In this document: positions 16,468-48,870 of the stretch, piece after piece
Position numbering within the stretch: position 1 is the first letter of the stretch
Layout: every line of letters begins with the position of its first letter
Assembly (NCBI GenBank): GCA_014190035.1
Contig: BJFU01000001.1
Coordinates: 14,135 to 78,134 of the forward strand
DNA length: 64,000 nucleotides
DNA from: Actinomycetes bacterium
GTDB lineage: Bacteria > Actinomycetota > Actinomycetes > S36-B12 > UBA5976
Reading direction: 5' to 3'
The notes under the pieces: generated by a model
What the model saw: only the letters and a program-made list of their open reading frames with translations
What the model was told of the DNA's origin: nothing
Database searches by the model: none
Program-made: the position numbers and the translations under genes

Positions 16468-17331
16468 TTAAAAAGGTCTTGCGCCAGAAATTTTGACTGC
16501 TTGAGAACCTAAGTTATTAGCGTTTTTCAAAATTGTTGCAGCTGGTTCATTTTTAACTAAACTAGTTAGAAATCCAGCTGCAAATGCATCACCTGCGCCA
16601 ATGGAATCAACCACCTCCACATTTTCTGGTATATCGATTACTTCCCGATCAGTGCTTAACCAGATGGATTCTTTGCTGCCTTTTTTCAAAATTAAGTTGT
16701 GGCATAACGACTTAATTTTTGAAGTGTCACCCAGAACTTCGGCTTCATCCTTGTTGGCAAACAGATAATTAAAAGGTGCAAGTTGAGCAAGTGAGTTAAA
16801 ACCATCGTTATCAATAAGGGGTTGACTGGAAGCAACATCTATTGATGTTTTTATATTGTGCTGCTTTGCCTTTTCGATGATTTCTTGAATGGTCTTTTTA
16901 GTATTCGTTCGCAACAAACTGTAGGCAGAAATATGAATTATTTCTGCTGTTTCAAACCAAGGACTAGGAACATCACTAGCAGAAAGAAAAAGATTTGCTC
17001 CTGGATCTGGAAACATGGTTCGCTCACCTTCAGCATCAATCAATATGCCACAGCTTCCACTTCTCGAGTTTGGAGTTTCCACTAAATTCAAAGAGAGATT
17101 TGGGTGAATTAATTCTTCTCGTATCAACTTTCCAGTTTGATCATCACCAATTCTTGCCACTAATCCGACTGAAACATTTTGTGTTGCTGCCCAACAGGCA
17201 GTATTGGTCGCAGATCCACCACCTTGCATTTTTATTTGGGATTGTGTATCAGATCCATAAGCAATTTGATCTTTAAATGAAATTAGGATGTCTTGCATCA
17301 CATCACCAACAAAAATAATCTGGACAGACAT
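16468..17331 (-). CDS. psuK: PfkB-family carbohydrate kinase, probable pseudouridine kinase
   Basis: PfkB signature near the C-terminus (DSIGAGDAFAAGF). Its stop abuts the psuG start. Confidence 0.7.
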   Translation of the reverse strand: MSVQIIFVGDVMQDILISFKDQIAYGSDTQSQIKMQGGGSATNTACWAATQNVSVGLVARIGDDQTGKLIREELIHPNLSLNLVETPNSRSGSCGILIDAEGERTMFPDPGANLFLSASDVPSPWFETAEIIHISAYSLLRTNTKKTIQEIIEKAKQHNIKTSIDVASSQPLIDNDGFNSLAQLAPFNYLFANKDEAEVLGDTSKIKSLCHNLILKKGSKESIWLSTDREVIDIPENVEVVDSIGAGDAFAAGFLTSLVKNEPAATILKNANNLGSQAVKISGARPF

Positions 17332-18236
17332 TATTTGGATATTGCTACAGCGATTTGAGCGGCTAGTAAAGCATTGTTCTTAACTAGGGCGATATTGGCT
17401 TTCAGCGATTGTCCTTGAGATTGTTCATGCATAAGTGCTAATAAAAACGGTGTTACGGCTTTGCCAGTAATTGAATTTTCTTTTGCTAGTTGTAAACCTT
17501 TGTTTAGAATGATTTCTTCTAATTTAGGATCAAATTGGTCCTCTTTTTTAATTGGTTGGGCTATTAAAATGGCTTCTTTAAAATGATTTACTTTTCTAAA
17601 CTTATAAATATCTGCAATCTCTGCCACACTCGTAACTTTCTCGGTTAGATCAAAACCCGAATCAAAAATCCAAAAACCTGGGAAATCTAAAGTTTGCCAA
17701 CCATAAACGGGAACGTGCCAGGTTTCTAATCTTTCTAAAGTTGCAGCAACATCAAGAATTGACTTGACTCCACTTGAAACAACGACAATAGGAATTTGAG
17801 CAAGAGCAGTTATGTCTCCAGATTCATCAAAAGTTTCACTGGCACCTTTATGGACTCCACCTAAACCACCAGTTGCAAAAGTAGTGATGCCACAAAGGTT
17901 TGCAATCCAAGCAGTGCTTGCCACAGTTGTTGCACCAGAGATTTTTCTGCTCACACAATGAGCTATATCTCTAATTCCTAATTTCAGCATGCTTGCATCG
18001 TTGGCAACTTGACTCAATTGAGTGGTATCTAAACCAACACAAATTTCACCATTAAGAACTGCGATTGTGGCAGGAATAGCCCCTGCATCTCTAACAACTT
18101 TTTCAATTTCTTGAGCAACACTAAAATTATCTGGCTTAGGTAAACCATGAGCAATAATGGTCGATTCTAAAGCAACTACTGGTTCATTATTTTTTAAAGC
18201 GTTTGCAACTTCAAGACTTATTTTCATTTCTGACAA
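17331..18236 (-). CDS. psuG: pseudouridine-5'-phosphate glycosidase
   Basis: IndA/PsuG profile (VVALESTIIAHGLPKPDN, ATGGLGGVHKG). Confidence 0.9.
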   Translation of the reverse strand: MSEMKISLEVANALKNNEPVVALESTIIAHGLPKPDNFSVAQEIEKVVRDAGAIPATIAVLNGEICVGLDTTQLSQVANDASMLKLGIRDIAHCVSRKISGATTVASTAWIANLCGITTFATGGLGGVHKGASETFDESGDITALAQIPIVVVSSGVKSILDVAATLERLETWHVPVYGWQTLDFPGFWIFDSGFDLTEKVTSVAEIADIYKFRKVNHFKEAILIAQPIKKEDQFDPKLEEIILNKGLQLAKENSITGKAVTPFLLALMHEQSQGQSLKANIALVKNNALLAAQIAVAISK

Positions 18237-36626: not shown

Positions 36627-37442
36627 TTATCTTGTCCTTAATATTAGGAATTGGAAGCGGCCTTCCATAAAATATGTTTTGCTGTACATAAGTGGTTCTC
36701 CATCACCAGCGTAATGGACCTGTTGTAGAAGTAGAAACAAATCATTTGCTGGTCTTTCGTTCCCCCATCCAATTTCCTTACTAATCACTGCATCAACTTC
36801 TGCAAGTGCTCTAATCGGACGAGAATTAATTGTGTCAAGAGAAGCAAAAACACTTCCTCTTTTCATTTCTTCTACAACTTCTTCTGGAAGTGAACTTATG
36901 TTGATTGTGTCATAAGAAAACGCCACCGCTTTACCATCGGCTAGCACCGCTCTTTCTAAATACAAAACTGGATCAGCACGATCAAGTCCTAATTTATCAA
37001 TTTCTATTTCTGTTGCAGGTCTGATGGCTGCAACTTTGTATTCCATACCTGGTTCATAACCCAATTCACTAATTGTTTCTGACATGGAACGAAGTTCATT
37101 TAATCCAGTAGGAATTGATCGACCAAAATTATTAACATAAGTTCCAGAACCATGTCGAATATCAACTAAACCTTGGTATTCCAAAGTTTTTAAAGCAGTT
37201 CGAACTGTAACTCGAGAAACTTTGTAGGTGGTGGATAGCTCTGATTCACTATGGATTTTCTCTCCCGGAGCCCACTCTTTGGCCAAGATCCTTCTGCGGA
37301 TGTCATCGCTGATTCGACGAGTCAGGCTGGCTCGACCGCCAAACTGATTAGCCGGAGTGTTCACCGTGTGCTCACATTTCTTTTTCGTAACAGTTCTTCT
37401 AGGGGAGTTGACAAGCAAGACAATATCTAAGAGGCTATTCAA
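36627..37442 (-). CDS. GntR family transcriptional regulator, HutC subfamily (winged HTH plus UTRA effector domain)
   Basis: ESELSTTYKVSRVTVRTALKTLEYQGLVDIRHGSGTYV, followed by a UTRA-like C-terminal half. The start is ATG 37442 or GTG 37364. Confidence 0.85.
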   Translation of the reverse strand: MNSLLDIVLLVNSPRRTVTKKKCEHTVNTPANQFGGRASLTRRISDDIRRRILAKEWAPGEKIHSESELSTTYKVSRVTVRTALKTLEYQGLVDIRHGSGTYVNNFGRSIPTGLNELRSMSETISELGYEPGMEYKVAAIRPATEIEIDKLGLDRADPVLYLERAVLADGKAVAFSYDTINISSLPEEVVEEMKRGSVFASLDTINSRPIRALAEVDAVISKEIGWGNERPANDLFLLLQQVHYAGDGEPLMYSKTYFMEGRFQFLILRTR

Positions 37443-37485: not shown

Positions 37486-38520
37486 TTGATGAGTGAAATC
37501 CGAGCCATTTCCTGGGTTAATGACGGGCTCATACTTATTGATCAAACTAAATTGCCTCATCAAGAAATCAATTTGAAAATTGAAACTGTAGATCAACTTG
37601 TTGACGCCATTATGAAATTAGCTGTGCGAGGAGCTCCAGCATTGGGAGCAGCAGGTGCATGGGGTGTAGTTGTGGCAATGCGCCAAGCAGAAAAAGAAAA
37701 GTGGAGTGAGCAAAAACGATCCGATGAATTTTTAAGAATTAGAAATGCCAGACCAACTGCAGTCAATTTAGCCTGGGGAGTGGACAAAGTTTTGCCATTT
37801 GTGGCGCAAGGAGTTAATGAAGTTTTAGCTCAAGCAAACAAAATTGCTTTAGAGGATGAAGCCGGCAATAGGCAAATGGGAAAGTTTGGTTCTAGTTGGA
37901 TTGAATCGAAAGTTAAAAATAGACCAATCAGAGCACTTACACATTGCAACACCGGATCTTTGGCAACAACTACTTGGGGTACAGCACTTGGTGTAATAAG
38001 AGAAATGAATTCTCGAGGAATTTTAAAACACGTGTTTGCAGATGAAACAAGACCATTATTACAGGGTGGTCGTTTAACAGCTTGGGAACTTGCGCATGAC
38101 AATATTGAACATTTTGTAATTGCAGACGGTGCTGCAACAAGCATTATTGCTCGCGGTGAAGTTGATGTGGCCCTTATTGGTGCAGACAGAGTTGCGGCAA
38201 ACGGTGATACTGCAAATAAAATTGGTTCATTTGCTGTTGCTCTAGCTTGTAAGTACGCAGGAATTCCTTTTGTTGTTGTTGCACCTGAATCAACAGTTGA
38301 TGTATCAACATTGACTGGAAAAGATATTGAAATTGAATATCGTGATGAAAATGAAATTCTTAGTTTAAATGGGCAAAGAATTTCTCCTGCAAAATCAAAA
38401 GGTTTAAATCCTGCATTTGATGTAACTCCAGCAGAATTGATATCTGCATTAGTTACCGAAAAAGGCGTTTATGAAATTTCAAATGGAGTAACGCCCGGTT
38501 CAATGTTAGCGAAAGCCTAA
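37486..38520 (+). CDS. mtnA: S-methyl-5-thioribose-1-phosphate isomerase family (MtnA/DrdI-like)
   Basis: LIDQTKLPH, VRGAPALG, ARPTAVNL, HCNTG (catalytic Cys), GADRVAANGDTANKIG (catalytic Asp) and NPAFDVTP. Confidence 0.9.
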   Translation: MMSEIRAISWVNDGLILIDQTKLPHQEINLKIETVDQLVDAIMKLAVRGAPALGAAGAWGVVVAMRQAEKEKWSEQKRSDEFLRIRNARPTAVNLAWGVDKVLPFVAQGVNEVLAQANKIALEDEAGNRQMGKFGSSWIESKVKNRPIRALTHCNTGSLATTTWGTALGVIREMNSRGILKHVFADETRPLLQGGRLTAWELAHDNIEHFVIADGAATSIIARGEVDVALIGADRVAANGDTANKIGSFAVALACKYAGIPFVVVAPESTVDVSTLTGKDIEIEYRDENEILSLNGQRISPAKSKGLNPAFDVTPAELISALVTEKGVYEISNGVTPGSMLAKA

Positions 38521-40512
38521 ATGTCAAATATTCCAACTCCACTAAAAGAATTAGTCGAAAGATCAAAATTCTTAGGCGTTAATCAAGATTTTGTTGTCTA
38601 TGGCGGAGGAAACACTTCGGCTAAAGGTGAAATTTCTGATCACTTCAATAGAACCAAAAACGTTTTATGGGTAAAAGGCTCTGGCGCAGACATGATGAAC
38701 GCAGAAGCTGCTGATTACCCAGCTTTGTACATGGACGAATTAATCCAAATTCTAAAGTTTGAAAAATTATCAGACGAAGAAATGACAGATCTAGTAAGTA
38801 GGGCTTTAGTTGACCCAGCAAGCAGAAGACCATCAATTGAGACTTTGCTGCACGCATTCTTGCCTTTTAAACATATTGATCATGTGCACGCAGATGCAAT
38901 TTGTGCATTAACAAATCATAAGAATGGCGAAAAGGCAGTTAAAGAAGCATTAGGTGACAAATTTGCATATGTTGATTGGATACGACCTGGTTTTGAATTA
39001 AGTAAGCAAGCCTCATTCTTAAAAGATGCTGAAGGCATAATTTTGGCACATCATGGACTTATTGTTTGGTCAGACAATAGTGATGAATGTAAGCAGAAAA
39101 ATCTTGATGTCATAAATAAAGTTGAAAAATATTTAAGTTCACTATCAAAGCGTCCTGAATCAGTATTTCAACACACAGATTACAGCGATGAAGAATATAA
39201 GAATCTTCTTTTACAGTTGCGTGGCAGACTAAATAAAAAAGGTAAGAAACTCTTAAGTCTTGATACAAGATTAAAAGAAATATCAAGCCGCAAAGATATT
39301 GATGAGATTTTAAGTGCTGGTGTATCAAGTGCCGATCATATGTTGAGAATTAAACCTTGGTCTGCAGTTCTTAACGAACCAAAAGATGGCGAGAAATCAA
39401 TTAAGGCCATTGATAACTTTGCTACTAAATATGAAAATTACTTTGAATCAAATAAAAATTTATTGCCTGCGGGCTATTCAATGAATGACTCTGACCCAAG
39501 AGTTGTCCTGGTACCAGATTTGGGAGCATTAACTACTGGTCATTCTCTGAATGAATGCAAAATGTATGCCGATATTTCTTACCACACTCATAAAACTGCT
39601 GCTATGGCGAAAGATTCCTTTGGAAATGTTGAAGGACTTCCAGATTCAGAAATTTTTGGTTTTGATTACTGGCCTATGGAACTTTATAAATTGGCAAGTA
39701 AACCAGCTCCAAAGAAATTTGCTGGAAATATTTTTATTGTTACCGGTGCAGCAAGTGGAATCGGATTAGGCATAACCCTTGAATTAGCCAAACTGGGAGC
39801 AAGTTTAGTTTTGGCAGATTTAGACGAAAAGGCATTAAATGCTGCTGCTGAAAAAATAAAGGAAGTTAAAGGCCTGAAACCAGAAATTATTGCAGGGGAT
39901 CAATCAGATGAGAAAGTTGTAAACAAAACAGTTGATTTAGCGATTAAGACTTTTGGTGGATTAGACGGTGTTGTCTTGAGTGCTGGTATTGCAGTAACTG
40001 ATCAACTCAAGGATTTGTCGGTAGATAAATGGAACAAAGGATTAGCAGTCAATTTAACAAGTGCATTCTTAATGACAAAGGCTGCAATGAATGCATTGAA
40101 AATTCAAAATTCAGGCGGATCCCTTGTTTATATTGCAAGTAAAAATGCTTTTGCTCCAGGTGCAGGTTTTGGTGGTTACTCAGTAAGTAAAGCTGGAATG
40201 TTGCAGCTTATGAGAATTGCCGCACTTGAAGGTGGAGCAAATCAAATTAGAGCTAATGCAATTAATCCTGATGCAATTTTTGATAACAGCAAACTCTGGG
40301 AAGGAGGAATCAGAGAAGAGAGAGCAAAAGCTCATGGCGTTAAGCCAGAAGAGTTAGAAGATTTTTATGCTCAAAGAAATATTTTGAAGTCACATGTAAC
40401 TTCTAAAGATGTAGCAAACACAACAGCTTTTCTTTTGTCTGACGAATCTGCCAGAACCACAGGCTCGGTCATCGCCGTCGACGGCGGGGTGGCTGCTGCA
40501 TTTCCGCGATAA
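38521..40512 (+). CDS. bifunctional class II aldolase/adducin-domain plus short-chain dehydrogenase fusion (YuxG/RhaEW-like)
   Basis: 663 aa. The N-terminal ~400 aa resemble the rhamnulose-1-phosphate aldolase/alcohol dehydrogenase family (GGGNTSAKG, HVHAD). The C-terminal SDR has VTGAASGIGLG and YSVSK motifs. Confidence 0.8.
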   Translation: MSNIPTPLKELVERSKFLGVNQDFVVYGGGNTSAKGEISDHFNRTKNVLWVKGSGADMMNAEAADYPALYMDELIQILKFEKLSDEEMTDLVSRALVDPASRRPSIETLLHAFLPFKHIDHVHADAICALTNHKNGEKAVKEALGDKFAYVDWIRPGFELSKQASFLKDAEGIILAHHGLIVWSDNSDECKQKNLDVINKVEKYLSSLSKRPESVFQHTDYSDEEYKNLLLQLRGRLNKKGKKLLSLDTRLKEISSRKDIDEILSAGVSSADHMLRIKPWSAVLNEPKDGEKSIKAIDNFATKYENYFESNKNLLPAGYSMNDSDPRVVLVPDLGALTTGHSLNECKMYADISYHTHKTAAMAKDSFGNVEGLPDSEIFGFDYWPMELYKLASKPAPKKFAGNIFIVTGAASGIGLGITLELAKLGASLVLADLDEKALNAAAEKIKEVKGLKPEIIAGDQSDEKVVNKTVDLAIKTFGGLDGVVLSAGIAVTDQLKDLSVDKWNKGLAVNLTSAFLMTKAAMNALKIQNSGGSLVYIASKNAFAPGAGFGGYSVSKAGMLQLMRIAALEGGANQIRANAINPDAIFDNSKLWEGGIREERAKAHGVKPEELEDFYAQRNILKSHVTSKDVANTTAFLLSDESARTTGSVIAVDGGVAAAFPR

Positions 40513-40571: not shown

Positions 40572-41663
40572 ATGATTAAGAACAAAGCACTAGCTGGTAT
40601 TACAGTTGTTGCTGCGTTGCTTCTTGCTGCATGTTCCCAAGGAACTAGCGACACCGCTACAACTGCAGATGAAGGAACAGTTGCAGAAGCAACCGGTACC
40701 AAGCCAGCACCATTTGATGCTGGTCCGGTAAAGATTGCAATCGTACAAAACAGTGGCGCCGGTGACTATTTCCAACAATGGACAAACGGAGCTAACAAGC
40801 AAGCTGAAGCAATCGGATTTGAAGTTCAAATCTATGACGCCCAAGCTGACAATGCTAAGCAAGCAACTGACATGGAAACAGCAATTGGTTCAGGCGTAGC
40901 TGGAATCATTGTTGACCACGGTCAAGCAGACACCATGTGTCCATTGATCAACAAAGCACTTGACGCAGGAATTCCTGTTGTTGTGTACGACGTTGCAACC
41001 GCTGAATGTGCACCAAAAGCTGTTACAACACAACAAAGCGATGCTTCACTTGCACAAGCAGTGCTAGATCAAATGGCACTAGATCTTGGTAAAGATGCCA
41101 AAGTTGGATACGTAAACGTATTAGGTATCGCACCTTTGGATCGTCGTCACGTTGTATGGGAAGCAATTGTGAAAGCTAACAATTGGACCCAGTCCTTCTT
41201 CGTTGGTAAATTTACCAACTCAGTTGCAACTGATAATGCACAATTAGTTGACGCAGCTCTTAAGAAGAGTCCAGACGTAGTGGGTATTTTTGCTCCTTAC
41301 GATGAACTAACTAAGGGAACTGTTTCAGGAATTGAATCAAATAACCTTCAGGCTTCAATCAAGGCATACGGAATTGATATTTCAAATGCTGATATTGAAA
41401 TCATGACTAAAGAAGGTTCACCATGGGTAGCAACAGCAGGTACTGATCCAAACGCGATCGGTGCAGCAGTTGTTCGAAACATGGCACTTGAAATAGCAGG
41501 CCAATTGGGAGTTAAATCAGTTGATTTCCCAGGTGTTCTAATTACTGCACAGTTCCTAAAGGACAACGCAGTTAAGAACATGGTTGACTTGCGTGCCAAG
41601 TTGCCAGAATTGAACCTTGCATCTGTCAGCGGAGCTGACTGGATTCCTGCAGTTCAGTTCTAA
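40572..41663 (+). CDS. sugar ABC transporter substrate-binding lipoprotein (CUT2 / ribose-binding-protein-like)
   Basis: Lipobox LLLAAC, and a type I periplasmic binding fold profile (VKIAIVQNSGAGDYFQQW). Confidence 0.82.
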   Translation: MIKNKALAGITVVAALLLAACSQGTSDTATTADEGTVAEATGTKPAPFDAGPVKIAIVQNSGAGDYFQQWTNGANKQAEAIGFEVQIYDAQADNAKQATDMETAIGSGVAGIIVDHGQADTMCPLINKALDAGIPVVVYDVATAECAPKAVTTQQSDASLAQAVLDQMALDLGKDAKVGYVNVLGIAPLDRRHVVWEAIVKANNWTQSFFVGKFTNSVATDNAQLVDAALKKSPDVVGIFAPYDELTKGTVSGIESNNLQASIKAYGIDISNADIEIMTKEGSPWVATAGTDPNAIGAAVVRNMALEIAGQLGVKSVDFPGVLITAQFLKDNAVKNMVDLRAKLPELNLASVSGADWIPAVQF

Positions 41664-41688
41664 TTAATTAGTAGACGGAGGCGAGTTA

Positions 41689-43194
41689 ATGGTTTCAGCT
41701 GTTGAGGTTAGAAACATTTCAATGGCATTTGGCACAAACCAAGTGTTAAGTGGAGTGGATTTAACAATCGACAAAGGACAAACCACGGCATTGTTAGGAG
41801 CTAACGGTGCAGGTAAGTCCACATTAATTAAAATATTGTCCGGAGTTTATTCATCCTTTACCGGGGAAATATTGATTGATGGAAAAGCTGTAACTATTGA
41901 CTCGCCAACTACTGCGAAATTAGCAGGTATTGAAACTGTTCATCAAAGAATTGATGAGGGAGTAATTCCTGGTTTAACAGTTGCCGAAAATCTATTATTT
42001 GACAAAATCGTCTCAGGAGAAATTCCCAGAGGAGTTTCTTTAAAAACAATTGTGAATGAAGCAGAAAAAATTGCTGGAGCATTAGACCTTAATTGGAATA
42101 GATCCAAGCTACGAAATGACGTTTATGAATTAGGTATCGCTGAACAACAAATGCTGATACTAGCTAGAGCACTTTCTAGGTCCCCAAAACTTTTAATTTT
42201 AGATGAACCAACCTCTGCACTCTCAGTTGCTGAAAGCCAAAACTTATTTAGATTTATCAAGAATCTTGAAGAGCAAGGAATTGCTGTTTTGTACGTTTCC
42301 CACAAATTAAGTGAATTAGAACAAATTGCTAAGAAACTTGTGGTGATGCGAGATGGAAAAATTAGAAATGAACAAAGCACACCCTTTTCATGGGATCTGG
42401 CTTTGAAAGAAATGCTAGGACAACAAGAACTTGGAGAAAGAAATAACTTTAAACAAGTTCAGGGTACTGGTGTGATTCTGAAATTAAATAACGTTCAATT
42501 ATTTAAAGAAAGTGAACCACTGAATTTAGAAATAAAGAAAAAAGAAGTTACTGGAGTAATTGGTCTACTTGGTGCAGGTAAAACTGAGCTTGCAAAAGTA
42601 ATTTATGGAGCAGATGAACTAATTTCAGGTTCAATGGATCTTGAAGGCCAATCATATAAACCAGGACATCCTTCAGATGCGGTTAGAAAAGATATTTATT
42701 GAGTTCCAGAAGATCGTGCAGCAGAATCAATGATTCCAAATTGGAGCATTTCACACATTGCAACTTTACCTTTCATGGGAGATTTTTCAGTTCGCGGAAT
42801 AATTAAGAAAATTAAAGAGGGCATACGCGGCAAAGAACTTGTACAAGATCTAAAAGTTGTCACAACTTCTCATGAAGCAATTGTAGATTCCCTTTCAGGA
42901 GGAAATCAGCAAAAAGTTGTTGTAGGAAGATGGTTGCAATCAAATCCCAAACTAATGATTTTGGATGAACCATTTAGAGGTGTAGATATTGGAGCCAGAA
43001 GAGACATTTCTAAACGGGTTAGAGATTTAGCTGCCACTGATGTTGCAGTTTTGGTTTTAGCCTCAGATGTGGATGAAATTTTAGATGTTGCAGATCGAGT
43101 AATTGTGTTAGTTGAAGGAAAAGTTGTAATGGATGTAAATGCTGGGGAAACATCAAAGGACAAAATAGTTAACAAAATGTCGGAGGTGGCATAA
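41689..43194 (+). pseudogene. sugar ABC transporter ATP-binding protein (tandem NBD, CUT2 type) interrupted by an in-frame TGA at 42700-42702
   Basis: Track ORFs 41689..42702 and 42730..43194 share one frame, and the 27 nt between them read VPEDRAAES. NBD2 Walker A (GLLGAGKTE) is upstream of the stop; its signature LSGGNQQK and Walker B LMILDEP are downstream. It could also be annotated as two CDS. Confidence 0.6.
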
Positions 43195-44223
43195 ATGAGT
43201 ATCGGAAAAACAAGTGCAACAAATGGGTTTGACTTGAGAGACTTCATTGTCAAATACGGTTTTATCCTCGTGACAGTGATTCTATTTGTTTGGTTTGCGT
43301 CAACAGAACCTACTTTTAGAATGCAAAACACTTTGTTTTCAATGCTTAAATTCACATCTGTTGTGGCAATTACCGGCCTTGGTGTGACTTTAACAATGGT
43401 GGTGGGAGGACTTGATCTTTCTGTTGGCTCAATTGCAGGATTATCAGTAACTCTTTCTGCCATGACAATGGTTATTTATGCACAAACTGGAGCTATTGCT
43501 CTGGTAGTAGTACTACTAGGTGGAGTGCTAGTTGGACTATTTAATGCCTTTTTAATTGTGGTTTTAAAGATTCCAGATTTACTAGCAACGCTTGCAACGA
43601 TGTTTACGATTATGGGATTAAAACTTGTTCCAGTTGATGGCCAATCTGTTTCTTCAGGATTGATTTTAAGAGATGGAAGCGTTGCTCCGGGAAAATTCAC
43701 TCCAGGATTTTTACTTATTGATCGCGCCTACATTGGTCCAGTTCCTCTACCAGTTGCCATATTTTTCATATTGGCATTTGTAGTTTGGATTTTTTTAACA
43801 AAAACTAGATGGGGCAGAGTTATGTATGCAATTGGCTCAAACCCAGAAGCTGCAAGATTAGCGGGAGTTCGTGTTCAAAGATATAGAGCTCTTGCTTATG
43901 TTCTCTCAGGAGTTTTTGCTTCAATTGGTGGCTTAATTCTTTCTTCAAGAATTGGGCAAGGAGATATCAGTGCTGGAAACTCACTGTTACTAGATGCTGT
44001 TGCTGTTTCCTTGGTTGGAACTTCAGTGTTGGGTATGGCAAGACCAAACGCTTGGGGAACAACTCTTGGTGCAGTTTTAATAGGAATCGTGATTACTGGT
44101 TTAACCATTAAAGGGTTTCCTTATTACGCCCAAGATGTGGTTAAAGGACTTGTGTTATTAACTGCTTTGATATTCTCATTTACACTTTCTAGACGAAAGT
44201 CTAGATTTGTGCCGGCTGTCTAA
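43195..44223 (+). CDS. sugar ABC transporter permease (RbsC/BPD_transp_2 type)
   Basis: About 9-10 TM helices and the typical CUT2 permease profile. Begins immediately after the ATPase stop. Confidence 0.85.
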   Translation: MSIGKTSATNGFDLRDFIVKYGFILVTVILFVWFASTEPTFRMQNTLFSMLKFTSVVAITGLGVTLTMVVGGLDLSVGSIAGLSVTLSAMTMVIYAQTGAIALVVVLLGGVLVGLFNAFLIVVLKIPDLLATLATMFTIMGLKLVPVDGQSVSSGLILRDGSVAPGKFTPGFLLIDRAYIGPVPLPVAIFFILAFVVWIFLTKTRWGRVMYAIGSNPEAARLAGVRVQRYRALAYVLSGVFASIGGLILSSRIGQGDISAGNSLLLDAVAVSLVGTSVLGMARPNAWGTTLGAVLIGIVITGLTIKGFPYYAQDVVKGLVLLTALIFSFTLSRRKSRFVPAV

Positions 44224-44234
44224 AGGAAAAATAC

Positions 44235-45461
44235 ATGGCTGATCAATACGAATTCTTAACAAAAGACAACATCTCAGAATACTTATCAAGTAAAAAAGTA
44301 TTTGCTAATTTAATAGATGCTAACAACCTTGTGGAATTCAAAGAAGTTGGCGATGGAAATCTTAATTTAGTTTTCATCATGAAAGACTCTGCAGGCAAAG
44401 GAATAGTTTTGAAACAAGCTTTGCCATACGTGCGCTTAGTTGGACCTGATTGGCCGATGACACCTTCTAGAGCAAGAATCGAAGCCGAAACAACAATTAT
44501 TCATTCCAAATATGCAAATAATCTTGTTCCTGAAATTTATGATTATGACCCAGATCGTTTCATCATTGCAATGCAAGATTTATCTGATCACGTTGTTTGG
44601 CGAGGAGCGCTAAATTCAGGTTTAAGATTTGATGGAGTTGCAGGACCCCTAGGAAAATATGTGGCCAACACTGCTTTTGGTACGTCTATATTTAGCCTAG
44701 GACAAGAACAACATAAATTAGAAATTGCCAGAGCAATAAATCCAGGACTTTGCTTAATCACTGAAGACTTAGTTTTTACAGAGCCCTATTTTGAAAATGG
44801 CCGCAACTCAGTGCTCCCAACAAATGAAAAAGATGCTCAAGAATTAGCAAATGATAAAGACATGGTTCATGAAATTGGTTTATTGAAATATAAATTTATG
44901 ACAGCTGGTGAATCTCTAATTCACGGCGATCTTCACACAGGATCGGTCATGATCAAATGTGAAGATAAAAAGGTAGCTGTAAGTGTTAAAGCAATTGATT
45001 CTGAATTCTCATTTTATGGACCCATCGGCTTTGATTTAGGTGCTTTAGTAGCTAATTACACAATTGCAGCGGCAAGAGCTTGTGCATTAGGAAATATTGA
45101 ACAAATGCATTGGGCCTTAAGTCTTGCCGAACAAACTTGGGTTGAGTTTGAAAAAGAGTTTAGAAAACTTTGGCCAACAAGAGTTGACAAAAGAGTTTTC
45201 ACAGATGCATTTTTAGACGATTTAATTAAAACTTGGAGATCAGACACTCTGGGTTATGCAGGAGCAAAGATGGCTCGAAGAATTGTGGGACTTGCTAAAA
45301 CTTCAGATATTGAAACTCTAGAACCAAATGTGCGTGAAGGTGCTGCTCGAGCTGTATTACAGATTGCCAGAAAAACCACAAAAGAACGAGACCTTGCAAA
45401 ATCTTGGTCAACACTTGCTAAAGAAGCAGCTGAAATTATGCAGAAAACTGCCACAAAATAG
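44235..45461 (+). CDS. mtnK: S-methyl-5-thioribose kinase family (MtnK/DrdK-like)
   Basis: Close motif match to B. subtilis MtnK as recalled: EVGDGNLNLVF, KQALPYVR, RARIEAE, LIHGDLHTGS, DSEFSFYGPIGFDLG. Confidence 0.9.
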   Translation: MADQYEFLTKDNISEYLSSKKVFANLIDANNLVEFKEVGDGNLNLVFIMKDSAGKGIVLKQALPYVRLVGPDWPMTPSRARIEAETTIIHSKYANNLVPEIYDYDPDRFIIAMQDLSDHVVWRGALNSGLRFDGVAGPLGKYVANTAFGTSIFSLGQEQHKLEIARAINPGLCLITEDLVFTEPYFENGRNSVLPTNEKDAQELANDKDMVHEIGLLKYKFMTAGESLIHGDLHTGSVMIKCEDKKVAVSVKAIDSEFSFYGPIGFDLGALVANYTIAAARACALGNIEQMHWALSLAEQTWVEFEKEFRKLWPTRVDKRVFTDAFLDDLIKTWRSDTLGYAGAKMARRIVGLAKTSDIETLEPNVREGAARAVLQIARKTTKERDLAKSWSTLAKEAAEIMQKTATK

Positions 45462-45469
45462 GGGAATGT

Positions 45470-45829
45470 ATGAAGACACCTAGAGAAATTGCTGAGTCAT
45501 ATTGGAAAGCAGAATGCGCTAGAGATACCAAAGCTGTTTTAGAGCATTACCATCCTGATGCAACTTTTTGTCCTCCTGGACAAAAACTTGTTGGACACGA
45601 TCAAATCAGCACTTTTTATGATGCATCAGGAGAAGCATTTCCTGGCTTAAAAGTTGATATCTTACATGAAGTAAGAAATGGCGATGAAAGTTGTATTGAA
45701 TGGTACGCAACTTTGACTGACAAACAAGGAAATGTTTTTAACATTCCTGGAGTAAACGTAATTAAAATAAGAGATGGAAAATTTGAATCCGTTCATGCAT
45801 ACTTTGATCCAACAGTTTTAAACGGCTAG
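45470..45829 (+). CDS. NTF2-fold / SnoaL-like protein
   Basis: 119 aa with a SnoaL/ketosteroid-isomerase-like pattern (AESYWKAECARDTKAVLEHYHPDATF...IKIRDGKFESVHAYFD). Confidence 0.6.
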   Translation: MKTPREIAESYWKAECARDTKAVLEHYHPDATFCPPGQKLVGHDQISTFYDASGEAFPGLKVDILHEVRNGDESCIEWYATLTDKQGNVFNIPGVNVIKIRDGKFESVHAYFDPTVLNG

Positions 45830-46929
45830 TTTTCTAGACTTTCCACATAAGTTCTTAAACTTCTAGCATTATCTAAAAGATTACCTCGGTGAAGCGCTCC
45901 ACCAATTAATAAGAAAGTGTCTTTACCAAAAAAGTTTGCTATTTCTGGGATTCTTTCAATTGTCATTCCGCCCCCAGGTGAAGGAAAAATTGGCTTTATA
46001 TTTCCTAATTTAGCGCGACAGAAATCTGCAATTTTTGTACATTCCTCTTTGGAGAAACTAAATCTGCCTCCATAGTTAGGGAAAACACTTATGTCTGCAC
46101 CACTCAAACGCATCAAAGTTGCCAGTACTATTTCGTGATTTAGACCATAATTGCTGTTCATAAAGTGAGAACCTAAAGTCGAAGGATGACTCATTAAAGG
46201 TATAGAAACTTCTTCGTCGTCTGCAATCATGCGCATTGTGTCAAAACCAGAAACTCCAGGAAGAATCATTAATGCACCACTGCCTAATTTTCGAGCAGTA
46301 ATGGCACATTCTAAAATTTCTTCGGCCGGACGATTAATGCTGGGGGCATAAACAGATTTACGATTAAATTTTTGGTTTGCTTCTGCTACTGCACCTGCAA
46401 TAACTTTTACTCGTTCATTCCATTTAGCCCAAGGTTGATTTGCCAAACTGTGATCATCTTTTATTAAATCAATTCCTGCTTCAACCATCACTGTGGCAAT
46501 TTTGGCTAATTCAGCAGAACCTAAACCCATTGGTTTTAAAGCAGTAGCCAAGATAGGACGTTTCTTTGCTCCTAGTATTTCTCTTACCCCACTTATTCCA
46601 AAACGTGGTCCTTTAAAAGAGTTTAAAAAGTCTTCGGAAAAATCAATTTTTGTAACTCGTACATCTGGAAACATCGAAACATTTCCCCATACGACATTCA
46701 ACATCTGACCAATTTCATAGCCAGTGGTATCAGTGTTGTAGTCAATTACAACTTCTGTCTTAGAAATCCCAATTTCTTTTGAGGAAACAACTTGGCCGAC
46801 TACTTGTTCTTGGATCCATTTAGGAGCTAAATCAAAAGGAAATTCAATGGTTTGCTCAACTCTGATTGCTTCAGTTACTTCTTTGCTGGAATCAGATTTT
46901 AAATGATAGGTAATCTGAATTGACGACAT
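45826..46929 (-). CDS. RuBisCO-like protein (form IV large-subunit homolog), short and divergent
   Basis: Barrel motifs align to the RuBisCO large subunit: KRPILATALKPMGLG (compare GRPLLGCTIKPKLGL), GIDLIKDDHSLANQPW (compare GLDFTKDDENVNSQPF), SPGGG, LLIGGALH. Only 367 aa. Confidence 0.8.
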   Translation of the reverse strand: MSSIQITYHLKSDSSKEVTEAIRVEQTIEFPFDLAPKWIQEQVVGQVVSSKEIGISKTEVVIDYNTDTTGYEIGQMLNVVWGNVSMFPDVRVTKIDFSEDFLNSFKGPRFGISGVREILGAKKRPILATALKPMGLGSAELAKIATVMVEAGIDLIKDDHSLANQPWAKWNERVKVIAGAVAEANQKFNRKSVYAPSINRPAEEILECAITARKLGSGALMILPGVSGFDTMRMIADDEEVSIPLMSHPSTLGSHFMNSNYGLNHEIVLATLMRLSGADISVFPNYGGRFSFSKEECTKIADFCRAKLGNIKPIFPSPGGGMTIERIPEIANFFGKDTFLLIGGALHRGNLLDNARSLRTYVESLEN

Positions 46930-46934
46930 CTGAA

Positions 46935-47948
46935 CTACAACGCTTCAGCTTTTGCAGTGCTATGAACATCGATAACTCTAGTTTGAGAAAGCTCTTCTTC
47001 TGATATTTGCAAATTCTTATCCATAAGTTTTTCAGTTGCTTCAATGAGATTTCGTGCGCTCATTCCATATTTGTGAAGTAAATACTTTTGGGATGCTCCA
47101 TGAGCGTAAGTATCTTTCAAACCAATCTTGATTAGTTTCTTACCAATTCCGTGTTCTGCGATTAGATCAGCAACGGCACTTCCTAAACCACCAATCACGC
47201 TGTGGTTTTCCATGGTGATTACTCCATATTTACTTGACTTAAGGCTTTCAATTACTTGAGGATCGGTGAAAGGTTTCAAAGTTGAAATGTGAAGATGTTG
47301 CACACTCACACCGTGTTCCTTAAGTGCAGGAATCGCTCTTAAAGCTTCTTCGGTGGAAATTCCAGAACTTAAAATTGTTACATCCGTTCCTGTACTCAAA
47401 ACACGTGCTTTATTAAATTCCATAACTTCATTTTTTGGAAAAATTCTAGATATTTCTCCCCGAAGCATTCTTATATAAACTGGACCATTAATTTTGTGTG
47501 CCACCTCTAGCACAGATTCAACTTCTGTTGCATCGCCAGTTTCTAGGATTGTCATATTTGGTATTCCACGCATAACGTTCACGTCATCAATTGCTTGATG
47601 GGTTACGCCTCCTGGAGTTGTGATTCCAGGCAAAAAACCAACCATTCTCACGGGAAGATTTGGGTAAGCCACTGACATCTGAAGTTGATCAAGAGGTCTT
47701 CTATAAATAAAGACAGCAAAAGTATGAATCCAGGGCTCAAATCCTTCTCGAGCTAATCCGCTAGCAAAACCGAGCATGTTTTGCTCACCTAGGCCAAAAG
47801 AAAAGAATCTATCTGGGAAAGTATCTCTAAATTTGCCGACTTCGCAAGAACTGGTTAAGTCTGCTGATAAAACTACAACTTCTGGTTTGAATTTACTCCA
47901 TCTGACAAAGTTTTCAACGTGTGGTCTTTTAACTATTTCGTAAGCCAT
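46935..47948 (-). CDS. transketolase, C-terminal (pyrimidine-binding plus C-terminal domain) subunit
   Basis: Split-transketolase B-subunit profile (FFSFGLGEQNMLGFASGLA, GVTHQAIDD). Confidence 0.88.
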   Translation of the reverse strand: MAYEIVKRPHVENFVRWSKFKPEVVVLSADLTSSCEVGKFRDTFPDRFFSFGLGEQNMLGFASGLAREGFEPWIHTFAVFIYRRPLDQLQMSVAYPNLPVRMVGFLPGITTPGGVTHQAIDDVNVMRGIPNMTILETGDATEVESVLEVAHKINGPVYIRMLRGEISRIFPKNEVMEFNKARVLSTGTDVTILSSGISTEEALRAIPALKEHGVSVQHLHISTLKPFTDPQVIESLKSSKYGVITMENHSVIGGLGSAVADLIAEHGIGKKLIKIGLKDTYAHGASQKYLLHKYGMSARNLIEATEKLMDKNLQISEEELSQTRVIDVHSTAKAEAL

Positions 47949-47949
47949 T

Positions 47950-48870
47950 TTATTTCCATGCTTTCAAGAAATTGTTGTATTTGATTTTTTCAAAAGGGTT
48001 AGCAAATCTAACGTAGTGAAGTGCATCTGGTCTATCTTTTAATATTTCAATTCCCTTTGCAGGATCTGTATAACCAAGAATTACTTTAGGTTTATCTTTG
48101 GCAGAAAATCCAGATTGCAATATTTGATTTATATCGTTGCCATCAATCTTGTCAACATCCCAACCAAAACTTTTAATTCTGTCAATCAATGGTTCAATTG
48201 ACATAACTTTTTCCATTGGACCGTCTACTTGGTTTCTGTTTACATCAACAATTATTCGAATATTATTTAATTCATGAAAACTAATTGCAGATAATGCTTC
48301 CCAGGTTTGTCCTTCTTGAAATTCTCCATCTGACATAAATATCCAAGTTTTTCCTGATTCACCACGTAACTTTCTTGCTAAGGCAACTCCTCCAGCTTGT
48401 GAAATAGCTTGGGCCAGGGAACCTGTAGTTGTTTCAAATCCTGGGGAATGCTCAGCACCAATCATTTCTACAGTTGTGCCATCTTTATTAAATTTCTCTA
48501 ATGACTTTTCAGTTAATCTTCCTGTTTCGATTAGTGCTGCGTAAATAACTAATGCGTAATGAGCTGGGCTGATAAATAGACGATCTAAATCTGGACCTTT
48601 TTTGCCGTGAAATTCTGCACCTGTTATGTAGTCAGTGAAATTTTTACTGGGCACATTTACAAAATCACGTGGTTCTAAAGGTGCTGAAAGAGGGGAAAGG
48701 TTAACAAGATTTGTGTATAGGCAGGCAAGAATTTCGGCAGAGGAACAAGCTTGGCTTAAATAGCCACCATTGTTTTTAACGGTGTGCTCAAGAACTCGAT
48801 GACGAATTCCATGGGCGATAGAGGCGATTTTCTCTATATCCACCTGTGTATTTGACTTAGATATGCTCAT
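47950..48870 (-). CDS. transketolase, N-terminal (thiamine diphosphate-binding) subunit
   Basis: GGYLSQACSSAEIL and the ThDP motif FMSDGEFQEGQTWEA. Confidence 0.88.
   Translation of the reverse strand: MSISKSNTQVDIEKIASIAHGIRHRVLEHTVKNNGGYLSQACSSAEILACLYTNLVNLSPLSAPLEPRDFVNVPSKNFTDYITGAEFHGKKGPDLDRLFISPAHYALVIYAALIETGRLTEKSLEKFNKDGTTVEMIGAEHSPGFETTTGSLAQAISQAGGVALARKLRGESGKTWIFMSDGEFQEGQTWEALSAISFHELNNIRIIVDVNRNQVDGPMEKVMSIEPLIDRIKSFGWDVDKIDGNDINQILQSGFSAKDKPKVILGYTDPAKGIEILKDRPDALHYVRFANPFEKIKYNNFLKAWK

What the first reader, a model, noticed from the sequence alone, without database searches (positions are those of the whole stretch)
45826..46929. Short RuBisCO-like protein with altered metal-site and phosphate-site motifs
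SEEN: it is 367 aa, against roughly 400-480 aa for most form I-IV large subunits. The segment preceding the GP..G motif that leads into the barrel is about 45 residues shorter than in plant RuBisCO. Motif alignment from memory gives ALKPM for TIKPK: the Lys175 equivalent is kept and Lys177 becomes Met. It gives IKDDH for TKDDE: the carbamylated Lys201 and Asp203 equivalents are kept and Glu204 becomes His.

ESTABLISHED: Lys201, Asp203 and Glu204 ligate the catalytic Mg2+. As I recall them, the characterised RLPs (MtnW/YkrW, the R. rubrum RLP) retain KDDE.

INFERENCE: it is not a carboxylase. A His in the metal site suggests different metal or acid-base chemistry, possibly a new RLP function.
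Basis: partly seen in the sequence, partly recalled or inferred. Interest (0 to 1): 0.65.

Follow-up and report, generated by a model that had tools for sequence, protein, structure and literature searches.

The report
Known-type RuBisCO-like isomerase, unusual transketolase partner
The short RuBisCO-like protein is an ordinary member of an already characterised group of sugar-phosphate isomerases that recycle the sulfur-containing by-product of S-adenosylmethionine, but here, in many other bacteria and (as a gene fusion) in diatoms it is coupled to an atypical transketolase-like enzyme. I found no description of that pairing.

Summary
A 367-aa RuBisCO-family ORF lies at 45826-46929 on the minus strand. 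Against spinach RbcL it has ALKPM (K175 kept, K177 lost) and IKDDH (K201 and D203 kept, E204->His).

The His is not new. The same signature and the same ~365-aa length occur in the IV-DeepYkr RLPs: PDB 3QFW (R. palustris BisB18) and the R. palustris RLP1 type, which was shown to be a 5-methylthioribulose-1-P 1,3-isomerase. The window protein groups with them (NJ bootstrap 100%). It sits in an mtnA / mtnK / sugar-ABC / aldolase-SDR locus.

So it is most likely that isomerase. "Not a carboxylase" holds. "New function because of His" does not.

The new element is the partner. The cupin methylsulfurylase that normally follows this RLP is absent. Instead, a split transketolase-like pair (46935-48870) lies just upstream on the same strand (5 nt from the RLP here; overlapping or within 6 nt in about 45 of 53 related loci). 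It keeps the ThDP and phosphate sites but invariantly lacks four canonical transketolase residues (H26Y, H100M, H461F, D469G). This pairing recurs in 53 of 85 related loci across several phyla. It alternates with cupin (with MetY in one locus) at the same position. In diatoms the two are fused into one polypeptide.

I infer a ThDP-dependent branch that cleaves 1-methylthioxylulose-5-P.

The parts
45826..46929 (-). RuBisCO-like protein, DeepYkr type (367 aa). Predicted 5-methylthio-D-ribulose-1-P (and possibly 5-deoxyribulose-1-P) 1,3-isomerase. Motifs: ALKPMG 130-135, IKDDH 156-160, GGRF 287-290.
   Evidence: The exact sequence is NCBI GDX16769.1, annotated 'hypothetical protein', from an Actinomycetes MAG.
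46935..47948 (-). Transketolase-like C-terminal subunit (Pyr + C domains, 337 aa). Keeps R358, S385, E411, H473 and R520 (E. coli TktA numbering). H461->F105 and D469->G113. Stops 5 nt before the RLP start.
47950..48870 (-). Transketolase-like N-terminal (PP domain) subunit, 306 aa. GDG/N ThDP-Mg motif kept, H66 kept. H26->Y37 and H100->M136.
45470..45829 (+). SnoaL/NTF2-like protein (119 aa), role unknown. Sits after mtnK: immediately upstream of the TK-like pair on the same strand in 7 loci, and convergent with the RLP gene here and in 4 others.
44235..45461 (+). 5-methylthioribose kinase MtnK (TIGR01767, 390.8 bits against a cutoff of 275).
40572..44223 (+). Sugar ABC importer: substrate-binding protein 40572-41663, ATPase 41689-43194 (interrupted by an in-frame TGA at 42700-42702), permease 43195-44223. 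Presumed uptake of 5-methylthioribose or 5-deoxyribose.
38521..40512 (+). Bifunctional class II aldolase / short-chain dehydrogenase (663 aa). Presumed DHAP-shunt branch acting on the same ketose-1-phosphate.
37486..38520 (+). 5-methylthioribose-1-phosphate isomerase MtnA (TIGR00512, 405.6 bits against a cutoff of 279). Supplies the RLP substrate.
36627..37442 (-). GntR/UTRA-family regulator, divergent from mtnA. Conserved in related loci.

Best explanation
The ORF is a form IV RuBisCO-like protein of the DeepYkr kind. It belongs to a large, mostly actinobacterial sister branch of the alpha-proteobacterial enzymes that have been characterised.

Shown: it shares their fold, their length and 17 of the 20 spinach active-site positions examined, including KDDH. 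It is embedded in a locus that imports a pentose (ABC transporter), phosphorylates it (MtnK) and isomerises it to the ketose-1-phosphate (MtnA).

Inferred: it catalyses the 1,3-proton-transfer isomerisation of 5-methylthio-D-ribulose-1-P to 1-methylthio-D-xylulose-5-P. It very plausibly does the same for 5-deoxyribulose-1-P, giving 1-deoxyxylulose-5-P. The reaction moves the carbonyl next to the CH2-SCH3 end and leaves the phosphate at the far end.

That product has exactly the shape of a transketolase donor: a xylulose-5-P skeleton. In the known pathway a cupin methylsulfurylase takes it next. Here that gene is replaced by a ThDP enzyme encoded immediately upstream. The enzyme keeps cofactor binding and the phosphate-binding arginines. 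It has lost the histidines and the aspartate that hold the donor's C1 and C3 hydroxyls, the substrate phosphate (H461) and the C4 hydroxyl (D469) (H26Y, H100M, H461F, D469G).

Inferred: it cleaves C2-C3 of the RLP product to give glyceraldehyde-3-P plus a ThDP-bound two-carbon thioether fragment. I favour beta-elimination of methanethiol from that fragment, leaving acetyl-ThDP, by analogy with phosphoketolase and sulfoacetaldehyde acetyltransferase. The reason is that the pair occupies the same chromosomal slot that holds cupin + O-acetylhomoserine sulfhydrylase in a close relative. The fate of the C2 unit is the least certain step.
For: RLP identity:
- The best solved relative is 3QFW (E 8e-65, rmsd 1.6 A, TMt 0.94).
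- 3QFW is the R. palustris BisB18 RLP, and it is followed by a cupin gene.
- R. palustris RLP1 is experimentally a MTRu-1-P 1,3-isomerase (PMC5893883).
- The active-site signature is identical apart from the T65 and H298 positions, with the S379 position (G here, A in the alpha enzymes) variable within the clade.
- NJ bootstrap is 100% for alpha DeepYkr plus the window clade against YkrW.
- Relatives at 46-58% identity sit next to orthologues of the methylsulfurylase cupin, which are 47% identical to the BisB18 cupin. These relatives are nested among the TK-linked ones.
- Only one alignment column separates the TK-linked from the cupin-linked RLPs, and it is not in the active site.

Substrate supply: MtnA and MtnK pass their curated NCBIfam cutoffs.

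Coupling to the TK-like enzyme:
- The TKN-TKC-RLP order occurs in 53 of 85 loci, on the same strand in 53 of 53, with an overlap or a gap of at most 6 nt in about 45.
- It is found in Actinomycetota, Chloroflexi and a Thermoguttaceae MAG.
- 22 of 26 loci of at least 15 kb also carry mtnA.
- A Chloroflexia operon reads SBP-ATPase-permease-mtnK-mtnA-TKN-TKC-RLP with no aldolase.
- Cupin and the TK-like pair never occur in the same locus.
- Locus L010 has cupin + CoA-binding protein + MetY where its relatives have TKN-TKC.
- Single-chain TK-like genes with the same signature are followed by an RLP in 2 of 3 places examined.
- Diatom proteins of about 1115-1185 aa fuse RLP (ALKPMG, IKDDH) with TKN (GGYLSQ) and TKC (FLPG..PGG.THQ).

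TK-like signature.
Against: - No enzyme was assayed.
- The window protein is only 33-38% identical to the characterised alpha-proteobacterial enzymes, and the actinobacterial clade has only 74% NJ support.
- The tree is NJ, not ML. It lacks IV-Photo, NonPhoto, AMC and GOS reference sequences.
- A third context class (18 Planktophila-type loci: mtnA-aldolase/SDR-RLP) has neither cupin nor TK nearby. The RLP product may therefore not need a dedicated partner, as would be true if it were DXP.
- The loss of D469, which reads the donor's C4-OH in canonical transketolases, is unexpected for a xylulose-5-P-type donor.
- The aldolase/SDR in the same locus could already dispose of the ketose-1-P, which makes the second branch look redundant.
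- The ABC ATPase carries a stop codon in this window, so uptake may be defective in this strain, or the stop may be an assembly error.
Confidence: 0.65

Rival explanations
1. The RLP's physiological substrate is 5-deoxyribulose-1-P, from 5'-deoxyadenosine or 5-deoxyribose, rather than the methylthio sugar. It makes 1-deoxy-D-xylulose-5-P directly. The TK-like enzyme then handles this 1-deoxy ketose, cleaving it to G3P plus hydroxyethyl-ThDP or transferring the C2 unit. No sulfur chemistry is involved.
For: - The Planktophila-type loci have an RLP with no cupin and no TK, as expected if the product (DXP) is already a central metabolite.
- Kinases of the MtnK family accept both 5-deoxyribose and methylthioribose (PMC6079011).
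- H100->Met/Leu and H26->Tyr in the TK-like enzyme make a hydrophobic C1 pocket that would suit a methyl group as well as CH2-S-CH3.
Against: - MtnA and MtnK pass the methylthio-specific equivalog cutoffs, although those models probably do not separate the two specificities.
- The module alternates with the methylsulfurylase cupin, with MetY beside it in L010, and that module is sulfur-specific.
- One RLP-less TK-like gene lies next to Cys/Met PLP enzymes.
Confidence: 0.2
2. One reading: His in place of Glu204 changes the metal or the acid-base chemistry and marks an RLP with a new, uncharacterised reaction.
For: - H160 is at least 90% conserved, so it is functionally important.
- The partner enzyme differs from the one in the characterised pathway.
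Against: - The same His is present in all 14 alpha-proteobacterial DeepYkr sequences examined, including 3QFW and the R. palustris RLP1 type, whose reaction is known (PMC5893883).
- No active-site position distinguishes TK-linked from cupin-linked RLPs.
Confidence: 0.07
3. It is a YkrW/MtnW-type 2,3-diketo-5-methylthiopentyl-1-P enolase of the classical methionine salvage pathway. That is the name of its best NCBIfam hit.
For: - NF007095 is the top hit (211.6 bits).
- The MtnW structures give the lowest Foldseek E-values.
Against: - The score is far below the curated cutoffs (211.6 against 409, and 150 against 513.6).
- The YkrW general-base Lys at the N123 position is Asn here, and KDDE is KDDH.
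- The tree separates it from YkrW at 100%.
- No MtnB dehydratase, MtnX or MtnD was seen among the locus genes scanned (36.1-50.4 kb). The rest of the window was only partly annotated.
Confidence: 0.03

Closest known systems
IV-DeepYkr RuBisCO-like proteins: R. rubrum Rru_A1998, R. palustris RLP1 (RPA2169), PDB 3QFW. 5-methylthioribulose-1-P 1,3-isomerase of the MTA-isoprenoid shunt.
   Same: - Fold, with rmsd 1.6 A to 3QFW.
- Length of about 365 aa.
- Active-site signature: E60, N123, K175, K201, D203 and H294 kept; E204->H, R295->P, K334->R, L335->F; K177 lost.
- Association with mtnA.
- Nested relatives are paired with the orthologous cupin.
   Different: - Only 33-38% identity; it belongs to a sister (mainly actinobacterial) branch.
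- T65->F and H298->L, where the alpha enzymes have C/M and A/S.
- The adjacent partner is a transketolase-like ThDP enzyme instead of the cupin methylsulfurylase.
- The substrate is supplied by MtnK and an ABC importer rather than by MTA phosphorylase.
IV-YkrW / MtnW DK-MTP-1-P enolase (B. subtilis, G. kaustophilus 2OEK, A. acidocaldarius 4NAS).
   Same: Same superfamily and dimeric RLP fold. Also part of methylthioadenosine recycling. K175, K201 and D203 are kept.
   Different: YkrW has KDDE and a catalytic Lys at the N123 position, is about 405-415 aa long, and works after the MtnB dehydratase. None of these applies here.
Cupin-type 1-methylthio-D-xylulose-5-P methylsulfurylase (R. rubrum; R. 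palustris RPA2170).
   Same: It occupies the position next to the RLP in relatives, and it is the enzyme the TK-like pair appears to displace.
   Different: It is an unrelated fold. It is reported to depend on a thiol (PMC6302742) and to yield DXP plus methanethiol (PMC4334135). No orthologue is present in the 64-kb window.
Canonical and split transketolases (E. coli TktA; C. hydrogenoformans split TK 6YAK/6YAJ) and DXP synthase.
   Same: Same three-domain ThDP fold split into two chains. The GDG/N Mg-ThDP motif, the activating Glu411, and the phosphate-binding R358, S385 and R520 are all kept.
   Different: H26->Y, H100->M/L, H461->F and D469->G are invariant or nearly so in the family (H100->M in 42 of 44, L in 2). 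The canonical H/D pair reappears only in hits below about 212 bits (rank 41 onward). The scores are well below the NCBIfam transketolase and DXS cutoffs.
DHAP shunt (MtnK/MtnP-MtnA-Ald2; DrdK-DrdI-DrdA) for methylthioribose and 5-deoxyribose.
   Same: The same first two enzymes and the same ketose-1-P intermediate. A class II aldolase, here fused to an SDR, is present in the locus.
   Different: The RLP plus TK-like branch would yield glyceraldehyde-3-P instead of DHAP, and an activated rather than a free C2 fragment.

Membership tests
RuBisCO large-subunit superfamily | Sequence match to the catalytic domain, and an N-domain plus (beta/alpha)8-barrel fold. | tested here: met
   PF00016 E 4e-25. 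AF2 pLDDT 95.2. TM about 0.9 to RLP and RuBisCO structures.
Bona fide RuBisCO (forms I-III) | Conservation of the RuBP-binding and catalytic residues K175, K177, K201, D203, E204, H294, R295, H298, H327, K334, S379, G381 and G403/404. | tested here: not met
   K177, E204, R295, H298, H327, K334 and S379 are replaced.
IV-YkrW (MtnW enolase) | A score above the curated equivalog cutoffs, the KDDE metal site, and Lys at the N123-equivalent position. | tested here: not met
   211.6 against 409 bits and 150.3 against 513.6 bits. KDDH, and Asn83.
IV-DeepYkr (MTRu-1-P 1,3-isomerase) | Groups with characterised members to the exclusion of other RLP clades. | tested here: inconclusive
   NJ bootstrap 100% with 14 alpha DeepYkr sequences against YkrW and spinach. 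3QFW is the best PDB sequence hit. However, no Photo, NonPhoto, AMC or GOS references were in the tree, and identity is only 33-38%.
IV-DeepYkr (MTRu-1-P 1,3-isomerase) | The clade's active-site signature (K..KDDH, P295, R334, F335, N123, E60) and a length of about 365 aa. | tested here: met
   17 of 20 positions are identical to P0121 (3QFW) and P0163. Lengths.
IV-DeepYkr (MTRu-1-P 1,3-isomerase) | A neighbouring cupin MTXu-5-P methylsulfurylase gene. | tested here: not met
   No cupin orthologue in the window. It is present next to nested relatives L002, L003, L010, L012, L015, L047 and L080.
IV-DeepYkr (MTRu-1-P 1,3-isomerase) | Catalysis of MTRu-1-P to MTXu-5-P plus MTRu-5-P. | not testable with these tools
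   Needs an enzyme assay.
Transketolase (EC 2.2.1.1), for the neighbouring pair | ThDP/Mg motif plus the catalytic residues His26, His66, His100, His461, Asp469 and His473 (E. coli numbering). | tested here: not met
   The cofactor motifs are kept, but H26Y, H100M, H461F and D469G. The E. coli reference sequence was checked against 2r5n, with one residue corrected.

The most novel reading that the evidence does not exclude
The RLP and the atypical ThDP enzyme together form a third, undescribed branch of 5'-methylthioadenosine (and perhaps 5'-deoxyadenosine) salvage. The RLP turns the ketose-1-phosphate into a xylulose-5-P-like donor. The transketolase-like enzyme splits that donor into glyceraldehyde-3-P and a ThDP-bound fragment. 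From this fragment methanethiol is eliminated without any thiol co-substrate. This would give genome-streamlined freshwater acI Actinobacteria, Chloroflexi and, as a single fused protein, Thalassiosirales diatoms a route to recover reduced sulfur.
Probability: 0.35. Interest if true: 0.8.

Novelty: new variant of a known kind. Interest (0 to 1): 0.55.

Why it matters
The RLP alone adds little: it is one more member of a clade whose reaction is known. What matters is the pairing.

- It defines a discrete family of transketolase-like enzymes with an invariant altered active site. All 150 proteins at least 90% covered by the regular-expression census in two searches carry the signature.
- I found no publication that links this family to RLPs or to methylthio-sugar metabolism.
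- It ties that family to MTA and 5-deoxyribose recycling by three independent genomic signals: operon adjacency, displacement of the cupin, and gene fusion.

The carriers include the numerically dominant freshwater bacterioplankton (Nanopelagicales) and bloom-forming diatoms. The result could therefore change how reduced-sulfur recycling and methanethiol production are modelled in lakes and oceans.

Two cultured strains, Georgenia sp. H159 and Ornithinimicrobium cavernae KCTC 49018, make it directly testable.

Tried and rejected
Papers not held by the library:
- Tabita 2007 (PMC2168653), Erb 2012 (PMC3475740), Imker 2008 (PMC2597038) and Warlick 2012 (PMC3490199).
- As a result, the clade residue tables and the R. 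rubrum sequence could not be checked directly.

Literature searches:
- RLP or methylthio-xylulose with transketolase: nothing relevant.
- Nanopelagicales with methylthio or rubisco: nothing relevant listed.
- Absence of hits applies only to the open-access library.

Readings rejected:
- The YkrW enolase, for the reasons given above.
- The carboxylase reading.

Alignment problems and how they were handled:
- MAFFT put a gap at K177 and mis-registered H461 in the transketolase alignments. I resolved both by ungapped counting from the invariant THQ and PG.E anchors.
- The His261-equivalent of the TK-like N-subunit could not be aligned reliably and is left open.

Checks not attempted:
- An ML phylogeny, because no such program was available.
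Full report
OBSERVATION.

The ORF at 45826-46929 is real, lies on the minus strand, starts with ATG and encodes 367 aa. It matches Pfam RuBisCO_large (E 4e-25). An AlphaFold2 model built on 61 homologues has mean pLDDT 95.2 and superposes on RLP and RuBisCO crystal structures with TM about 0.9.

For residue numbering I used the spinach RbcL sequence from memory, and confirmed that it is identical over 475 residues to PDB 1ir1/8ruc. The alignment gives:
- kept: E60=E25, N123=N83, K175=K132, K201=K157, D203=D159, H294=H248, G381, G403/404;
- changed: E204->H160, T173->A130, R295->P249, H298->L252, H327->V282, K334->R289, L335->F290, S379->G319, T65->F30, W66->P31;
- K177 has no basic counterpart (ALKPMG against TIKPKLG).

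The GP..G motif lies at 107-111 against 150-154 in spinach. The N-terminal part is therefore 43 residues shorter. About 48 residues are missing at the C-terminus.

THE MOTIFS ARE A CLADE HALLMARK, NOT A NOVELTY.

The best solved relative by sequence is 3QFW (E 8e-65), a 378-residue chain that itself reads ALKPQGL and DLIKDDHGL. Foldseek names it 'Rubisco-like protein from Rhodopseudomonas palustris', released in 2011. It has the lowest rmsd (1.6 A) and the highest target coverage (TMt 0.94) of all hits.

Its sequence is 100% identical to a 368-aa protein of R. palustris BisB18 (CP000301.1). That gene is followed, with overlap, by a Cupin_2 gene. A second R. palustris RLP of 366 aa has the same RLP-cupin layout. 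Its 90% cluster contains the TIE-1 protein ACF00976.1.

This is the arrangement of RLP1 (RPA2169) and the methylsulfurylase cupin (RPA2170). RLP1 was shown in vivo and in vitro to be the 5-methylthioribulose-1-P 1,3-isomerase of the MTA-isoprenoid shunt, with kcat 1.3 s-1 (PMC5893883).

All 14 alpha-proteobacterial sequences of this clade that I aligned carry K..KDDH, P295, R334 and F335, exactly as the window protein does. YkrW/MtnW enolases do have VKDDE. I could not obtain the R. rubrum sequence itself.

The family is large. There are more than 3600 homologues with E below 1e-10, nearly all 360-373 aa, and relatives in at least 576 species genomes. K132, K157, D158 and D159 are invariant. 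M134 and H160 are at least 90% conserved.

PLACEMENT.

I built a neighbour-joining tree of 102 sequences on 360 columns with 50 bootstraps. It included the window protein, 83 RLPs from fetched loci, 14 alpha DeepYkr sequences, three YkrW fragments and spinach RbcL.
- Alpha DeepYkr plus the window's clade: 100%.
- The alpha clade: 100%.
- The mainly actinobacterial clade: 74%.

Identity to the alpha enzymes is 33-38%. The window protein is thus a member of a sister branch, not a close orthologue.

The tree is NJ only and lacks Photo, NonPhoto, AMC and GOS references. Whether this branch corresponds to the old 'IV-GOS' group is open.

The exact sequence is deposited as GDX16769.1, 'hypothetical protein', from an Actinomycetes MAG. 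The window has 39% G+C and a WhiB gene, and its closest relatives are Nanopelagicales MAGs.

CONTEXT IN THE WINDOW.

- Plus strand: mtnA (TIGR00512, 405.6 bits against a cutoff of 279), a bifunctional class II aldolase/SDR, a sugar ABC importer, mtnK (TIGR01767, 390.8 bits against a cutoff of 275) and a SnoaL-like gene. A divergent GntR regulator lies upstream.
- Minus strand, converging on these: a split transketolase-like pair followed 5 nt later by the RLP.

No methylsulfurylase-type cupin exists anywhere in the 64 kb.

CONTEXT ELSEWHERE.

I classified the neighbours of the RLP in 85 loci by BLAST against the window's proteins and the cupin of locus L002.

- 53 loci have TKN-TKC-RLP. The genes are always on the same strand, and TKC and RLP overlap or lie within 6 nt in about 45. 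These loci come from Actinomycetota (including the cultured Georgenia sp. H159 and Ornithinimicrobium cavernae KCTC 49018), Chloroflexi and a Thermoguttaceae MAG. 22 of the 26 loci of at least 15 kb also carry mtnA.
- In seven loci all ten genes, mtnA through RLP, lie in one direction.
- A Chloroflexia operon reads SBP-ATPase-permease-mtnK-mtnA-TKN-TKC-RLP-regulator-RbsD/FucU with no aldolase at all.
- 7 loci have the cupin instead. It is 47% identical to the BisB18 cupin. None of these loci has the TK-like pair, and no TK locus has the cupin.
- In L010 the RLP is 58% identical and the flanking synteny (WhiB ... RLP-aldolase/SDR-mtnA) is the same. There the slot between WhiB and the RLP holds cupin + CoA_binding_2 + an O-acetylhomoserine-sulfhydrylase-like gene instead of TKN-TKC.
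- Cupin-linked RLPs are scattered among TK-linked ones in the tree. Only one alignment column, outside the active site, separates the two sets.
- 18 Planktophila-type loci have mtnA-aldolase/SDR-RLP with neither partner nearby.

THE TRANSKETOLASE-LIKE ENZYME IS ATYPICAL.

Its closest solved relatives are the split transketolase of Carboxydothermus hydrogenoformans (6YAK/6YAJ), human transketolase and DXP synthases. NCBIfam scores are far below the transketolase and DXS cutoffs.

I aligned it against E. coli TktA. My recalled TktA sequence was checked against 2r5n, with one residue corrected. Across 44-50 RLP-linked pairs:
- kept: the GDG/N Mg-ThDP motif, Glu411, His66, His473, and the phosphate binders Arg358, Ser385 and Arg520;
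- changed: His26->Tyr (44/44), His100->Met (42/44), His461->Phe (50/50), Asp469->Gly (50/50).

From established transketolase enzymology (my own knowledge): His26 helps hold the donor's C3-OH, His100 helps hold the C1-OH and the dihydroxyethyl-ThDP intermediate, His461 helps bind the substrate phosphate, and Asp469 reads the C4-OH. The change creates a more hydrophobic head pocket.

An exhaustive search of 1.84 billion representatives with TKC found 1160 proteins at E of 1e-30 or below.
- All top hits carry the F/G pair (37 of 150). The canonical H/D pair appears only from rank 41 onward, at about 212 bits or below.
- In a second search, 112 of 118 hits had the F/G motif and 108 had GGY. The remainder are compatible with truncated sequences, which I did not check.

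ROSETTA-STONE FUSION.

Thalassiosirales diatoms encode single polypeptides of about 1115-1185 aa with RuBisCO_large + Transketolase_N + Transket_pyr + Transketolase_C. The species are Cyclotella cryptica, C. atomus, Thalassiosira profunda, T. exigua and Skeletonema marinoi. The records come from genome annotations, EukProt and an MMETSP transcript marked complete.

Their RLP part is 36-42% identical to the window RLP and carries ALKPMG, IKDDH and GGRF. Their TK parts are 43-59% identical and carry GGYLSQ, VELIGAEH and FLPG...PGG.THQ.

Bacterial single-chain versions of the TK-like enzyme are followed directly by an RLP in two of three places examined. The third lies next to PALP and Cys/Met-metabolism PLP genes.

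MECHANISM.

Shown:
- the RLP belongs with enzymes of known reaction;
- its substrate-supplying genes are in the locus;
- it is genetically coupled to the TK-like enzyme by adjacency, mutual exclusion with the cupin, and fusion.

Inferred: MTR (or 5-deoxyribose) is imported, phosphorylated by MtnK and isomerised by MtnA to the ketose-1-P. The RLP performs the 1,3-isomerisation to 1-methylthio-D-xylulose-5-P (or DXP). This molecule has a xylulose-5-P skeleton and a distal phosphate, so it fits a transketolase-type donor site, whereas the 1-phosphate precursor cannot.

The ThDP enzyme then cleaves C2-C3 to give glyceraldehyde-3-P. The enamine left on ThDP carries a beta-thioether. Elimination of methanethiolate to give acetyl-ThDP is chemically precedented by phosphoketolase (loss of water) and by sulfoacetaldehyde acetyltransferase (loss of sulfite); both precedents are from my own knowledge. 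That reaction would make the enzyme a thiol-independent functional replacement of the cupin. It is consistent with the swap against cupin + MetY in L010.

Two alternatives for the C2 unit cannot be excluded: release as 2-methylthioacetaldehyde, or transfer to an acceptor.

The main rival is that the true substrate is the 5-deoxy sugar. The partner-less Planktophila loci would fit that.

LITERATURE.

Searches of the open-access library found no paper that connects an RLP, or methylthio-xylulose, with a transketolase, and none listed that connects Nanopelagicales with RLPs. Several key subscription papers were not available, so prior mention cannot be excluded.

VERDICT.

- The reported observation is confirmed.
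- Its interpretation is only partly right. The protein is not a carboxylase, but the His is the normal DeepYkr residue and does not point to a new RLP reaction. As an RLP it is a new member of a known kind.
- The surrounding evidence points to a new variant of the MTA-salvage pathway, in which an atypical ThDP enzyme replaces the cupin methylsulfurylase. It is widespread and apparently undescribed.

Limits:
- no biochemistry;
- an NJ tree with incomplete reference clades;
- context classes assigned by BLAST on the 80 loci most similar to the query (plus 5 fetched earlier), which biases the sample towards Actinomycetota.

Noticed in passing
window 42700-42702 (within 41689-43194, + strand): The ABC-transporter ATPase is interrupted by a single in-frame TGA. 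Homologues have Leu or Met at that position and read through as one protein of 501-502 aa. This is either a nonsense mutation (a pseudogene, so uptake would be lost) or an assembly error in the MAG.
   Followed up: partly
P0419, P0422, P0431, P0445 and others (diatom proteins): Thalassiosirales diatoms (Cyclotella, Thalassiosira, Skeletonema) encode polypeptides of about 1115-1185 aa that fuse this RLP type with the atypical transketolase-like enzyme. One is annotated only as 'RuBisCO large chain family protein' or hypothetical.
   Followed up: partly
window 45470-45829 (+); also L001, L007-L009, L029, L037, L044, L065, L066, L070, L077: A SnoaL/NTF2-like gene of 119 aa follows mtnK in 11 loci. 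In 7 it lies immediately upstream of the TK-like genes on the same strand; in the other 4, as in the window, it converges on the RLP gene. Its role in the pathway is unknown. It might be an epimerase or isomerase acting on the 3:1 xylulose/ribulose product mix.
   Followed up: no
L010 7647-9897; L012, L015, L047: In the cupin-type loci a CoA_binding_2 protein sits next to the methylsulfurylase cupin (4 of 7 loci). In L010 an O-acetylhomoserine-sulfhydrylase-like gene sits there too. This hints that CoA might be the thiol co-substrate in Actinobacteria, which lack glutathione.
   Followed up: no
L014, L016, L018, L020, L022, L023, L036, L057 and others (Planktophila / Nanopelagicaceae): A nested clade of 18 loci has an mtnA-aldolase/SDR-RLP operon with neither cupin nor TK-like genes within the fetched flanks. 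What consumes the RLP product there is unexplained.
   Followed up: partly
L089 4801-10052: One single-chain TK-like gene with the full atypical signature has no RLP within 8 kb. It is divergent from a PALP (cysteine-synthase/CBS-like) gene and a Cys_Met_Meta_PP gene.
   Followed up: no
L064 12851-13682 (Ornithinimicrobium cavernae): Two further ORF fragments with 46-54% identity to the RLP lie about 2 kb downstream of the intact RLP. They may be a second, disrupted RLP copy.
   Followed up: no
window 16468-18236 (-): A PfkB kinase and an Indigoidine_A-like (pseudouridine glycosidase-type) gene pair. The same pair lies immediately next to the RLP in loci L002 and L003, but 28 kb away from it here.
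   Followed up: no
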